Origin: Craspedostauros australis
Lineage: Eukaryota
Reading direction: 5' to 3'
Assembly (NCBI GenBank): GCA_030167865.1
Contig: JALAGF010003172.1
Coordinates: 62,001-83,779, forward strand
Length of the DNA: 21,779 nucleotides
The position numbers were made by a program, and so were the translations under genes. The notes beneath the pieces were generated by a model that saw only the letters and a list, made by a program, of their open reading frames with translations, was not told the origin of the DNA and ran no database searches. Each line of letters starts with the position of its first letter. Position 1 is the stretch's first letter. Of this stretch, positions 8,700-13,856 are shown in pieces.

Positions 8700-9028
8700 C
8701 ATGATGTTCGATGATTGTTTCTGCAGGGAGCGGAAACAGAAGCTGGTGTTGGGAGAATAATTAAAGTACAGCACAGCACAGCACAGTACGAAAGAGAAGA
8801 GCAGTGTTCATGCGTGAGTAGACACAGTTCATAACGAACGACGACCACTTAATCCTTGCGGCAAGCCGATTTACTCTATGTTGCTCAAAGAGTGTGGTGG
8901 CGATAGGTCCCTCGCCTGAAGCTGGGCCTGCGGAAGCGCCAGCATCAAGAGGAAACCAGAATTGGGCAAAAACAGAGAAATGGGACGAAAAGATGAGCAA
9001 AAAGGGCTGATTCCTGCTCTTTTGGAGT

Positions 9029-9033
9029 AAAAA
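9029..9033 (-). terminator. RNA polymerase III terminator (T5)
   Basis: TTTTT 4 nt after the 5' half of the permuted tRNA on the minus strand. Confidence 0.65.
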
Positions 9034-9037
9034 GAGT

Positions 9038-9115
9038 CTGCAATCGAACGCTCTACCACTGAGCTATACTGACCTAGAGAGTCAACAACGTGAGTCGAAC
9101 ACGTGACCATTCGAA
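9038..9115 (-). tRNA. trnC-GCA: Circularly permuted tRNA-Cys(GCA): 3' half 9115-9080, linker CTCTAG, 5' half 9073-9038
   Basis: The halves reassemble into a full cloverleaf: acceptor GTCAGTA/TGTTGAC, D-arm GCTC/GAGC, anticodon stem TTCGA/TCGAA with GCA (9041-9039), T-arm ACGTG-TTCGACT-CACGT, and U73 discriminator (Cys identity). Confidence 0.88.
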
Positions 9116-9146
9116 TACTGCTTCGCTGACGTGCTGAGCGAAAAAC

Positions 9147-9153
9147 ATATTTA
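9147..9153 (-). promoter_or_regulatory. TATA-like element upstream of the permuted tRNA
   Basis: TAAATAT begins 38 nt upstream of the 3' half. A similarly placed AT-rich box lies at the other copy. Confidence 0.4.
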
Positions 9154-9349
9154 TGAACTCTTGAATTGGTGCTGCTGCACAACAACAAATCTTCATTTGT
9201 TCTGCCCCAACCCAACAGGCATTCCCGATCCACCCATCCACCCACCACACATGCTCATTCAGTGGCAGCCAGCACACTTCACAAAGAGAGCGCGAGGGAA
9301 CTCAACAGCAGCATCCAATAGCATCCATGATGAAAGCAACAAAGATTGC

Positions 9350-12910: not shown

Positions 12911-13255
12911 TTCGAGAGGATGGACGATTGACGTTGGATGATTGGTCTTGGGTTGGCTCTCGTAGAAATGTGTGAAGTCTGAGCTCCCTATGGCAGATGT
13001 ATTGATCGCGTATCTGCCCTATCTTGTATTAGTATGAGTGCCACACACTGTGTGATGAATAGTACTATGAGTGGCAATTCGATGTCTGTTGTTGATGTGT
13101 GCGAGTATGGGGTTGAGTGGTGTGTGTTGTTGTCTTGTTGTCTTGTTGGCGTGATCTTCTCTTTCTCTCTTTTGCGCGAAACCATCTTCAAGTTTGTCTG
13201 TGACTGTTTCGTGGGCAGAGAGGTCAACTTTTTCCTAGTGCACCATACATGACAG

Positions 13256-13261
13256 TATTTA
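13256..13261 (+). promoter_or_regulatory. TATA-like element upstream of the permuted tRNA
   Basis: TATTTA begins 42 nt upstream of the 3' half. Confidence 0.4.
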
Positions 13262-13297
13262 GACCGTATTCTGCGTTATGTGGGTAGCACAGCAGTA

Positions 13298-13375
13298 TTC
13301 GAATGGTCACGTGTTCGACTCACGTTGTTGACTCCACGGGTCAATATAGCTCAGTGGTAGAGCGTTCGATTGCAG
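13298..13375 (+). tRNA. trnC-GCA: Circularly permuted tRNA-Cys(GCA): 3' half 13298-13333, linker CCACGG, 5' half 13340-13375
   Basis: Reassembled: GTCAATA TA GCTC AGTGGTA GAGC G TTCGA TTGCAG|T TCGAA TGGTC ACGTG TTCGACT CACGT TGTTGAC T. All four stems pair, the anticodon GCA is at 13372-13374, and U73 is present. The B box precedes the A box. Confidence 0.9.
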
Positions 13376-13379
13376 ATTC

Positions 13380-13384
13380 TTTTT
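13380..13384 (+). terminator. RNA polymerase III terminator (T5)
   Basis: TTTTT 4 nt after G37 of the 5' half; further T-runs follow. Confidence 0.65.
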
Positions 13385-13856
13385 ACACCAAAAGAGCAGG
13401 AATCAGTCCTTTTTGCCCATCTTTTCGTCCCATTTCTCTGGTTCTGCTCGATCCAGGCTTCATTTTGCTACTTCCAAGCAGCAATGGCAACAGCAGGAAC
13501 CGCCACAACATCGGTAATGGTGATGTCTCTTCCGCAATCGGCGCTGATGGGCCATTCTCCCCAGATGCACCACACACAAGTGGAGATGAGGATGAACCTG
13601 GCGTCCGGATCAGCAATAGTAACGAAATCTTGTGCTGAAACTCTTAACCAATCTCATGTTTGCAGCTTCGTCGATGAGAGGTGATTCATCGTGAAGTGTT
13701 GGTACTTGGGAGCGCCAAGAGATGGATTCGCTGTCGACTATAATATTATTGTTTAGAATGGCGACTTTCCGTCAATGGCTCACAGTATGTATTTGTATGG
13801 AGTAGGCGCGTGTCCTGTCAAAATTGTTCACAACCTTCATTCCGTTCTTCCCCCGA

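What the first reader, a model, noticed from the sequence alone, without database searches (positions are those of the whole stretch)
13291..13384. Circularly permuted tRNA-Cys(GCA) gene in an apparent diatom genome
Seen: the tRNA 3' half (positions 38-73) precedes the 5' half (1-37) across a 6-nt linker, and the halves rebuild a complete cloverleaf with GCA anticodon and U73. No conventional partner half flanks either piece. Established: permuted tRNA genes mature via a circular intermediate and are known from the red alga Cyanidioschyzon merolae, prasinophyte green algae, a chlorarachniophyte nucleomorph and the archaeon Thermofilum. Standard tRNA scans miss them. Inference: I know of no report from diatoms or other stramenopiles, so this may extend the system to a new lineage; that needs a literature check.
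Basis: partly seen in the sequence, partly recalled or inferred. Interest (0 to 1): 0.93.

Follow-up and report, generated by a model that had tools for sequence, protein, structure and literature searches.

The report
Permuted cysteine tRNA genes in diatom
This diatom DNA carries two copies of a cysteine tRNA gene whose back half is written before its front half, an arrangement known from a few other algae but apparently unreported for diatoms, and environmental DNA suggests it is widespread among them.

Summary
At 13298-13375 (+) a tRNA 3' half (nt 38-73) is followed by a 6-nt linker and the 5' half (nt 1-37). Swapped in silico, the halves give a 72-nt tRNA-Cys(GCA) with U73. Standard scans miss it.

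A covariance model built only from 10 non-diatom-type permuted tRNA-Cys loci finds exactly these two sites, at 81.6 and 81.4 bits; the next best hit scores 7.2.

A metagenome scan gave 106 loci. Of these, 47 have 7/7 acceptor pairing across the linker, and 16 sites on 14 contigs share the window's tRNA body with compensatory acceptor changes. One of these contigs is from a Thalassiosirales diatom.

Three features fit Pol III transcription and splicing-endonuclease processing: a conserved leader strand that pairs with nt 32-35, a T-run 5 nt after nt 37, and an AT-rich block near -40.

The window's proteins match only diatoms among named hits.

Permuted tRNA-Cys(GCA) at junction 37/38 is already known in Ostreococcus and Micromonas, and this scan met the Ostreococcus gene before. 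I found no diatom report. Expression, and the absence of a conventional gene, could not be tested.

Verdict: a new member of a known kind.

The parts
13254..13263 (+). AT-rich (TATA-like) block at -44..-35 upstream of copy A. Candidate upstream Pol III promoter element.
   Evidence: Copy B has an AT-rich block at -42..-26 although the two upstream regions are otherwise unrelated. PlantRNA reports an AT-rich region at -30 to -40 of P. tricornutum tRNA genes (PMC3531208, passage).
13291..13297 (+). 7-nt leader of copy A (AGCAGTA). Nt -6..-3 (GCAG) can pair with nt 32-35 of the anticodon loop. Nt -2, -1 and nt 38 form a 3-nt bulge that holds the 3' cleavage site.
   Evidence: Identical 7/7 in copy B, while -20..-13 is 2/8. 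The helix is 83% paired across 28 distinct sequences, with G-C at the 32/-3 pair in 3 sequences that have C32.
13298..13333 (+). Copy A 3' half: tRNA nt 38-73 (anticodon-stem 3' strand, variable loop, T arm, acceptor 3' strand, discriminator U73).
13334..13339 (+). Copy A intervening sequence (linker), CCACGG. [quoted passage not shown]
   Evidence: It differs at 4 of 6 positions from copy B's linker. The CCA at its start is absent from copy B and from relatives, so it is not an encoded CCA end.
13340..13375 (+). Copy A 5' half: tRNA nt 1-37 (acceptor 5' strand, U8, D arm with G18G19, anticodon-stem 5' strand, loop with U33 and GCA at 13372-13374, G37).
13376..13450 (+). Trailer of copy A. T5 at 13380-13384 (+5..+9) is the likely Pol III terminator. 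A second T5 lies at 13410-13414. The first 75 nt are 67/75 identical to copy B.
   Evidence: A run of 4 or more T within 30 nt after nt 37 is present in 37 of 38 eukaryote-type metagenome loci; the exception is cut by the contig end.
9116..9122 (-). 7-nt leader of copy B (AGCAGTA).
9038..9115 (-). Copy B, the second permuted tRNA-Cys(GCA) gene: 3' half 9115-9080, linker CTCTAG 9079-9074, 5' half 9073-9038. One change against copy A (G5 for A5), which still pairs with U68.
   Evidence: 81.4 bits.
8963..9037 (-). Trailer of copy B, with T5 at 9033-9029.
9141..9157 (-). AT-rich block at -42..-26 upstream of copy B.

Best explanation
The window holds two functional, circularly permuted nuclear genes for cytosolic tRNA-Cys(GCA), of the type with its junction at 37/38, in a diatom.

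Proposed pathway (inferred, by analogy with the pathway shown biochemically in red and green algae):
1. RNA polymerase III starts a few nucleotides upstream of the 3' half, helped by an AT-rich block near -40. It ends at the T5 run 5 nt after nt 37.
2. In the linear precursor the two halves fold into the tRNA body. The acceptor stem is closed by the 6-nt linker.
3. The leader's GCAG pairs with loop nt 32-35. Each cleavage site then sits in a 3-nt bulge, giving a relaxed bulge-helix-bulge that includes the 32/-3 anticodon-intron pair.
4. The tRNA splicing endonuclease removes leader and trailer. The tRNA ligase joins G37 to U38, producing a circular RNA.
5. RNase P and tRNase Z excise the linker, and CCA is added.

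Shown here: the gene order, the cloverleaf, conservation and covariation in relatives, the conserved leader strand, the T-runs and the AT-rich blocks.
Inferred: transcription, the order of cuts, the circular intermediate and aminoacylation.
For: - Swapped halves give tRNA-Cys(gca) with U73 and all standard arms.
- There are two copies with unrelated upstream DNA. They are 36/36 and 35/36 identical in the halves, and the one change keeps pairing.
- A model from 10 other-lineage permuted tRNA-Cys loci scores 81.6 and 81.4 bits with no non-standard pair marked.
- Of 106 metagenome loci matching the architecture pattern, 47 have 7/7 acceptor pairs across the linker. Chance for 7 pairs is roughly 0.1% by my estimate.
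- 16 sites on 14 contigs share the window's 57 non-acceptor positions with at most 2 mismatches, but carry different, mutually compensating acceptor stems and different linkers of 5-21 nt.
- On 28 distinct sequences, 94.3% of cells pair, against 26-42% when partners are slid. The anticodon stem is 100% paired with 3 pairs changed on both sides. The T stem is 97.9% paired with 4 such pairs. The leader/loop helix is 83% paired.
- T-runs follow nt 37 in 37 of 38 eukaryote-type loci.
- One same-body contig (L006) is from a Thalassiosirales diatom by its flanking gene: 83% to Stephanodiscus, 74-80% to Thalassiosira.
- Named protein relatives of the window are all diatoms.
- The pathway itself is established for algal permuted tRNAs (PMC3978253, section 6 passages). 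Trl1-type ligase homologues are stated to occur in diatoms (PMC4090602, passage).
Against: - There is no expression evidence. No sequencing run was listed, so the junction read, the circle and the CCA-tailed tRNA are unseen.
- The genome is not held, so a conventional tRNA-Cys gene elsewhere cannot be excluded. PlantRNA's curated P. tricornutum set is not reported as lacking tRNA-Cys (passages only; supplements closed).
- Part of the comparative signal is built in. My pattern fixed the D arm, part of the T loop and TGCA, and I kept only loci with 7/7 acceptor pairs for the alignment.
- The outer helix of a strict bulge-helix-bulge is missing. At most 1 of 2 tested pairs forms in either window copy, and that helix is 62.5% paired overall.
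- The A box lies downstream of the B box, so the promoter is unclear.
- ARAGORN on swapped halves also probably bacterial tRNA-like elements tRNA-Cys, so that test alone does not discriminate.
Confidence: 0.85

Rival explanations
1. Non-functional relic. The locus is the inner part of an old tandem pair of conventional (intron-containing) tRNA-Cys genes whose outer halves decayed. The working tRNA-Cys gene lies elsewhere in the genome.
For: Tandem duplication followed by loss of the outer segments is the published model for the origin of such genes (PMC3978253, section 10 passage). The genome could not be searched for a conventional gene. A weak tRNA-like match (21.1 bits, below the 29-bit cutoff) joins the 5' half to the trailer.
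Against: - Both halves are intact and identical in two copies whose linker and upstream DNA have diverged.
- Acceptor stems covary across the linker in at least 9 different acceptor-stem versions.
- The leader strand and the T-run are conserved across lineages.
- A relic would not keep these features.
- No outer halves lie within the window.
Confidence: 0.07
2. Head of a tRNA-derived repeat (SINE-like element or locally duplicated segment) rather than a tRNA gene. The two copies share about 100 nt of trailer.
For: Copies A and B align over about 177 nt at 89.8%. The trailer at +1..+75 is 67/75 identical.
Against: Only two copies, and no decayed ones, are found in 21.8 kb by sensitive blastn. 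The tail is not shared by any metagenomic relative, whereas the tRNA halves are. Similarity starts exactly at the 7-nt functional leader. Genome-wide copy number is untestable here.
Confidence: 0.03
3. A tRNA-like regulatory or decoy RNA (Y RNA-like, YrlA type) that keeps the permuted order and is never turned into a tRNA.
For: Rfam's YrlA model is the best match to the native order: 33.7 bits, E 2.7e-5 in a 1.1-kb search. The relatives score 29-42 bits.
Against: - All these scores are far below the family's 69-bit gathering score.
- YrlA is a bacterial and phage family.
- The long closing stem is absent.
- The element keeps U73, U33, G37 and an exact anticodon stem and loop, which a decoy does not need.
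- Known Ostreococcus- and Micromonas-type permuted tRNA genes have the same layout, and the model built from such loci finds both window copies.
Confidence: 0.03

Closest known systems
Permuted tRNA-Cys(GCA) genes of Ostreococcus lucimarinus, O. tauri and Micromonas pusilla (Maruyama et al. 2010, as tabulated in PMC3978253 Table 1, read)
   Same: Same isoacceptor, same junction (37/38, type II), no intron, a short intervening sequence and a T-run downstream. Metagenome loci with 26-nt and 12-nt linkers, the lengths tabulated for O. lucimarinus and M. pusilla, went into the model that finds the window copies at about 81 bits.
   Different: - The host is a diatom (stramenopile), not a green alga.
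- The linker is 6 nt, against 12-38 nt.
- The tRNA body differs at 12-15 of 57 non-acceptor positions.
- Whether the two lineages share one origin is open.
Permuted tRNA genes of Cyanidioschyzon merolae (Soma et al. 2007; reviewed in PMC3978253)
   Same: Same gene logic: 3' half, intervening sequence, 5' half. Shared features are a TATA-like element within 50 bp upstream, a T-stretch downstream, no signals in the linker, a bulge-helix-bulge-like fold at the junction, and CCA not encoded (section 4). The circular intermediate was shown there by RT-PCR.
   Different: C. merolae has 11 such genes with four junction types, and none is tRNA-Cys. In the window only type II tRNA-Cys is seen, and no RNA evidence exists.
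Permuted tRNA-Ser genes of the Bigelowiella natans nucleomorph
   Same: Type II with a very short intervening sequence (5 nt, Table 1), comparable to the 6 nt here.
   Different: A relict green-algal nucleus and a different amino acid.
YrlA / bacterial Y RNA-like RNAs (Rfam RF02553)
   Same: The order T arm, acceptor-like stem, D arm in one transcript. It is the only Rfam family that matches the native sequence.
   Different: The score is half the gathering threshold. It is a bacterial family that needs a long Ro-binding stem, which is absent here. It is a resemblance of layout, not membership.

Membership tests
Circularly permuted tRNA gene, type II (junction 37/38) | 3' half lies upstream of the 5' half on one strand, separated by a short intervening sequence | tested here: met
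   13298-13333, 6-nt linker, 13340-13375. Copy B has the same layout.
Circularly permuted tRNA gene, type II (junction 37/38) | Halves rebuild a canonical cloverleaf with conserved tRNA elements (U8, G18G19, U33, T54-C56, R15:Y48) and the identity element U73 | tested here: met
   ARAGORN on the swapped halves. The named elements were read directly. All 25 modelled pairs are standard in the model alignment.
Circularly permuted tRNA gene, type II (junction 37/38) | Leader and trailer form a bulge-helix-bulge (strict or relaxed) around the junction | tested here: inconclusive
   A central 4-bp helix (leader -6..-3 with nt 32-35) and two 3-nt bulges are present and conserved, 83% paired over 28 sequences. 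The outer helix is at most 1 bp in both window copies. This is therefore a relaxed motif. The free-energy fold prefers another register.
Circularly permuted tRNA gene, type II (junction 37/38) | Upstream TATA-like element, downstream T-stretch, and no terminator in the intervening sequence | tested here: met
   AT-rich blocks at -44..-35 (A) and -42..-26 (B). T5 at +5..+9 in both copies. The linkers CCACGG and CTCTAG have no T-run.
Circularly permuted tRNA gene, type II (junction 37/38) | Conservation of the arrangement in relatives, with compensatory changes between the two halves | tested here: met
   Caveat: acceptor pairing was a selection criterion for the alignment. The independent figure is 47 of 106 loci with 7/7 pairs.
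Circularly permuted tRNA gene, type II (junction 37/38) | Mature tRNA and circular intermediate detected | not testable with these tools
   No sequencing run was listed, so read laying could not be used.
Circularly permuted tRNA gene, type II (junction 37/38) | The gene is needed, meaning there is no conventional gene for this anticodon in the genome | not testable with these tools
   No genome is held for the window. None is found in the window itself.
YrlA (Rfam RF02553) | Score at or above the family's gathering threshold of 69 bits | tested here: not met
   33.7 bits. Relatives score 29-42 bits.
tRNA-derived SINE | Many dispersed, decayed copies with a shared non-tRNA tail | tested here: inconclusive
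   The window holds two intact copies and no decayed ones. The tail is shared only between these two. The whole genome is not available.

The most novel reading that the evidence does not exclude
The permuted gene is the only source of cytosolic tRNA-Cys in diatoms as a group, so every cysteine codon of a globally dominant phytoplankton lineage would depend on RNA circularisation. It would also share a single origin with the Mamiellophyceae gene. The two have the same isoacceptor, the same 37/38 junction and the same leader strand. In both, the gene tends to sit a few nucleotides behind another tRNA-type 3' end. That would make it a rare genomic character bearing on the disputed green-algal gene flow into the diatom nucleus.
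Probability: 0.1. Interest if true: 0.8.

Novelty: new member of a known kind. Interest (0 to 1): 0.62.

Why it matters
Permuted tRNA genes have been a curiosity of a few tiny red and green algae, one nucleomorph, one prasinovirus and one archaeon. Finding them in a diatom nucleus extends the system to stramenopiles, a major and well-studied algal group. The same tRNA body also occurs in at least 14 environmental contigs, one of them from a centric Thalassiosirales diatom.

Practical consequence: standard annotation (ARAGORN, and the Rfam tRNA model at its threshold) reports no gene at these sites. Diatom tRNA sets, and codon-usage or tRNA-adaptation analyses built on them, may therefore be missing tRNA-Cys.

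The finding also offers a genetically tractable group in which to ask two questions: why such genes persist, and how Pol III transcribes a gene whose B box precedes its A box. Some diatom-type loci apparently solve the second problem by placing the gene 6-10 nt behind a tRNA-Ala gene.

Tried and rejected
- Expression. The look-up of sequencing runs listed no RNA holder (none was listed).
- Whole-genome checks. No genome is held, and the metagenome loci are not in held records.
- Taxon from the protein atlas. Uninformative for the window's U-box protein and for L001's rhodanese fragment.
- Swap-and-ARAGORN as a discriminating test. 44 of 44 swapped candidates are called tRNA-Cys, including 4 that I judge by inspection to be bacterial tRNA-like elements. 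This test shows a cloverleaf, not tRNA function.
- Generic permuted scan with artificial introns. It finds only loci A and B but mislabels the anticodon as Ser(gct), an artefact of my padding.
- Encoded CCA. Copy A's linker starts with CCA, but copy B's and the relatives' do not. Rejected.
- Downstream pseudo-B-box or relic 3' half in the trailer. There is a weak tRNA-like hit of 21.1 bits in the window, but only 1 of 20 related loci (L051, 23.5 bits) shows anything similar. Not general.
- Inverted copies as transposon ends. Similarity is sharp at the inner (leader) ends and fades at the outer ends, the opposite of terminal inverted repeats. Rejected.
- Free-energy folding of the precursor gives z = -1.13 and a different leader register. 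It neither supports nor refutes the bulge-helix-bulge.
- The bacterial-type promoter and terminator scan found nothing relevant.
- Maruyama et al. 2010 is not held.

Full report
WHAT IS THERE

The window reads, on the + strand, as follows:
- a 7-nt leader (13291-13297)
- 36 nt that are tRNA positions 38-73 (13298-13333)
- the 6-nt linker CCACGG (13334-13339)
- 36 nt that are positions 1-37 (13340-13375; anticodon GCA at 13372-13374)
- four nucleotides later, TTTTT (13380-13384)

ARAGORN on the native window finds no tRNA. Rfam at gathering thresholds finds nothing in 21,779 bases.

When a script places the 5' half before the 3' half, ARAGORN calls a 72-nt tRNA-Cys(gca). It has a 7-bp acceptor stem (one G-U), discriminator U, a 4-bp D stem, a 5-bp anticodon stem and a 5-bp T stem. 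From one can read U8, A14, G18G19, A21, U33, G37, T54-T55-C56, G53:C61 and G15 with C48.

Its coordinates include the leader and the T-run.

A SECOND COPY

A pattern for the architecture (T loop, 19-49 nt, D arm, seven bases, TGCA) matches twice in the window and never in 100 shuffles. The second gene (copy B) lies on the minus strand: 3' half 9115-9080, linker CTCTAG, 5' half 9073-9038.

Identity of A against B by region:

| Region | Identical |
|---|---|
| 3' half | 36/36 |
| 5' half | 35/36 (A5 to G5, still pairing with U68) |
| leader -7..-1 | 7/7 |
| leader -20..-13 | 2/8 |
| linker | 2/6 |
| trailer +1..+25 | 23/25 |
| trailer +26..+50 | 23/25 |
| trailer +51..+75 | 21/25 |
| trailer +76..+100 | 16/25 |
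| trailer +101..+120 | 4/20 |

Each half occurs only in these two places at up to 3 mismatches. Sensitive blastn of the 201-nt unit finds only A and B. So no outer partner halves and no decayed copies lie in the window.

A general scan of my own for junction-37/38 permuted tRNAs took all pairs of 7-bp complementary strands 0-80 nt apart and gave the swapped halves to ARAGORN. It hits only these two loci among 4,540 candidates, and hits nothing in three shuffled windows.

WHICH ORGANISM

The long ORFs carry SET, peptidase S28, ankyrin and U-box domains, which is nuclear eukaryotic content.

The S28 ORF's 120 listed relatives reach 31-44% identity. Every hit with a readable organism name is a diatom: Cylindrotheca, Bacillariaceae MAGs, Discostella, Pseudo-nitzschia, Thalassiosira.

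A lineage-specific ORF has only two relatives, and the named one is from a Bacillariaceae MAG.

The window is thus from a diatom without a close relative in that database. No genome is held for it.

RELATIVES

One scan of metagenome contigs with the same pattern returned 106 loci.

- In 47 of the 106, the seven bases after the T arm pair 7/7 (G-U allowed) with the seven bases before U8. That is, the acceptor stem forms across the gap. By my estimate the chance expectation is about 0.1% per locus.
- The other 59 look like ordinary neighbouring tRNA genes.
- Of the 47, five lack an anticodon-stem partner at the expected distance: L010 (a tandem pair of conventional tRNA-Cys genes), L015, L029, L054 and L076.
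- Four more (L034, L058, L066, L078) I set aside by inspection as probably bacterial tRNA-like elements. They have no U73 or no G1, and three of the four have no T-run. This was not tested further.
- The remaining 38 all have U73, and 37 have a run of 4 or more T within 30 nt after nt 37. The exception is cut off by its contig end.

Sixteen sites on 14 contigs match the window's 57 non-acceptor positions with 0-2 mismatches. They carry other acceptor stems, each internally complementary, and other linkers of 5-21 nt. Eight further sites differ at 4-8 positions.

Fourteen sites differ at 12-15 positions. Among these are sets with 26-nt and 12-nt linkers, the lengths tabulated for the O. lucimarinus and M. 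pusilla tRNA-Cys genes (PMC3978253 Table 1). That assignment is by linker length only.

The contig of L006, a same-body locus, encodes an aldehyde dehydrogenase fragment within 200 nt. It is 83% identical to Stephanodiscus triporus and 74-80% to Thalassiosira species. So at least one relative is from a centric Thalassiosirales diatom.

STRUCTURE TESTS

On an alignment of 28 distinct sequences in native order, I wrote the expected nested structure and counted pairs.

| Measure | Result |
|---|---|
| Cells forming standard pairs | 94.3% (26-42% when partners are slid by 1-3 columns; 0 of 500 shuffles reach the observed values) |
| Anticodon stem | 100% paired; 3 of 5 pairs change on both sides |
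| T stem | 97.9% paired; 4 of 5 pairs change on both sides |
| Acceptor stem | 100% paired; all 7 pairs covary |
| D stem | invariant |

Two of these rows are not independent evidence. The acceptor pairing was my selection criterion, and the D stem is fixed by the pattern. The anticodon TGCA is also fixed by the pattern, so its conservation among relatives carries no weight.

As an independent score, I built a covariance model from the 10 sequences least like the window: the prasinophyte-type sets plus L001, L062, L067 and L070. It finds copy A at 81.6 bits and copy B at 81.4 bits (rough E about 4e-24), with every modelled pair standard. The next hit scores 7.2 bits.

SIGNALS FOR PROCESSING

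Leader nt -6..-3 (GCAG in both window copies) can pair with loop nt 32-35. This leaves nt -2, -1 and 38 as one 3-nt bulge, and nt 36, 37 and +1 as the other. Both cleavage sites then sit in the bulges.

This geometry is that of a canonical 37/38 intron. The 32/-3 pair corresponds to the anticodon-intron pair of eukaryotic pre-tRNAs. That term appears in a figure legend of PMC4090602; the exact positions are from my own knowledge.

Across the 28 sequences this helix is 83% paired. The three sequences with C32 have G at -3. The outer helix is weak: 62.5% paired overall, and at most one pair in each window copy. The motif is therefore of the relaxed kind defined in PMC3978253. RNAfold prefers a different, non-conserved register.

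In six diatom-type loci a tRNA-Ala(UGC) gene ends 6-10 nt before nt 38. In L045 a tRNA-Ala and a tRNA-Leu(CAA) precede it. There the leader is just long enough to hold this strand, which agrees with the 7-nt block conserved between copies A and B.

SIGNALS FOR TRANSCRIPTION

Both copies have T5 at +5..+9, and neither linker has a T-run.

The window copies have no upstream tRNA. Both have an AT-rich block, at -44..-35 in A and -42..-26 in B, in otherwise unrelated DNA. PlantRNA describes an AT-rich region at -30 to -40 of P. tricornutum tRNA genes (PMC3531208, passage). C. merolae permuted genes have a TATA-like element within 50 bp (PMC3978253).

How Pol III factors use a B box that lies 35 nt upstream of the A box is not known from these data.

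MECHANISM

I take the pathway shown by RT-PCR for red and green algal permuted tRNAs (PMC3978253, passages) as the most likely one:
1. A linear precursor is made.
2. The splicing endonuclease removes leader and trailer.
3. Ligation of nt 37 to nt 38 gives a circle.
4. RNase P and tRNase Z remove the linker.
5. CCA is added.

Nothing in this pathway was observed here. An order in which the linker is cut first is not excluded.

RIVALS

- Decayed relic of a tandem gene pair. This does not fit the perfect conservation of both halves against a diverged linker and upstream DNA, nor the covariation in relatives.
- Repeat or SINE head. This is suggested by the shared trailer, but there are only two intact copies here, and no relative has that tail.
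- Y RNA-like RNA. The Rfam YrlA model gives the only match to the native order (33.7 bits; 29-42 bits in 20 related loci). These scores are far below the family's 69 bits, and the layout resemblance is expected for any permuted tRNA.

LITERATURE

- "permuted tRNA" together with "diatom": 9 papers, 7 listed. I read passages of the 2026 EMBO J review (PMC13578239), the tRNAscan-SE 2.0 paper, the Auxenochlorella paper and Yoshihisa's review. The other three I saw only as listings. None reports a diatom case.
- "permuted tRNA genes": 51 papers, 40 listed. No title or abstract start among those listed mentions diatoms or stramenopiles.
- Two further searches added nothing.
- The 2014 review counts 34 genes, in C. 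merolae, four Mamiellophyceae, the B. natans nucleomorph and Thermofilum pendens.
- Later additions that I saw are Bathycoccus and a prasinovirus (PMC3673656) and Auxenochlorella (PMC12636532).
- PlantRNA 2.0 annotated two heterokontophytes and mentions permuted genes only for C. merolae.
I cannot say which diatom genomes were searched before, or how P. tricornutum tRNA-Cys is annotated.
- Earlier notes of this scan describe the Ostreococcus tRNA-Cys gene on other DNA. None concern this genome or sequence.

UNEXPLAINED

Between copies A and B the 6-nt linker (2/6 identical) is far more diverged than the adjacent 75-nt trailer (67/75). The trailer is not conserved in other lineages. Possible causes are constraint on the trailer in this genome, gene conversion that skipped the linker, or a mutational event in the linker. 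I could not decide between them.

VERDICT

These are real, very probably functional permuted tRNA-Cys(GCA) genes. They are a new member of a known kind, in a lineage where the kind appears unreported. The environmental data suggest the arrangement is common in diatoms.

Noticed in passing
window 9038-9122 (-): Second permuted tRNA-Cys(GCA) gene, 4.2 kb from the reported one and in the opposite orientation. It has a different linker (CTCTAG) and one wobble-preserving change in the acceptor stem. The finding did not mention it.
   Followed up: yes
window 13376-13450 (+) vs 9037-8963 (-): The 75-nt trailers of the two copies are 67/75 identical, while the 6-nt linkers are 2/6 identical and the upstream DNA is unrelated. 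The trailer contains two T5 runs and a small hairpin. Relatives do not share it.
   Followed up: partly
L006 685-756, L024 579-650, L031 101-172, L071 689-760, L075 508-579, L089 135-206, L045 1-156: In diatom-type metagenome loci a tRNA-Ala(UGC) gene ends 6-10 nt before the permuted tRNA-Cys gene. In L045 it is tRNA-Ala plus tRNA-Leu(CAA). These are probably polycistronic Pol III units that lend the permuted gene a normal internal promoter. The window copies lack this.
   Followed up: partly
L024/L025 (one 1,513-nt contig) and L031/L032 (one 1,278-nt contig): Two permuted tRNA-Cys sites lie on the same short contig, about 0.8 and 1.2 kb apart, with the same leader and linker. These are tandemly repeated units.
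   Followed up: no
L043, about 10-35 nt upstream of the permuted gene (minus strand of the locus): Only the T arm and acceptor 3' strand of the tRNA-Ala gene seem to remain upstream. ARAGORN (with introns) and Rfam find no whole tRNA. It is either a decayed neighbour or another disrupted gene.
   Followed up: partly
L012 (and L077, L094, L102), 5-30 nt upstream of the permuted gene: The 12-nt-linker (Micromonas-like) loci also have a tRNA-type 3' end (T loop and acceptor strand) a few nucleotides upstream, yet no whole tRNA is detected there.
   Followed up: partly
L029 and L076: The acceptor strands pair 7/7 and the 5' half is the diatom type. However, the T stem and the anticodon-stem partner are disrupted in the 3' half. 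This may be an extra intron or a pseudogene.
   Followed up: no
L010 564-1181: AT-rich contig (31% GC) with a cluster tRNA-Ile(UAU), tRNA-Leu(CAA) and tandem conventional tRNA-Cys genes 21 nt apart. This is the arrangement proposed as the precursor state of permuted genes.
   Followed up: no
L015, L034, L054, L058, L066, L078: GC-rich loci with T arm, closed acceptor-like stem and D arm, but no U73/G1 combination and mostly no T-run. They are probably bacterial Y RNA-like (YrlA-type) elements caught by the pattern. L058 shows long leader-trailer complementarity.
   Followed up: no
L011, L049, L059 (28-30% GC) and L036, L079 (34% GC): Diatom-type permuted tRNA-Cys genes sit in very AT-rich flanks. 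The host lineages are unknown.
   Followed up: no
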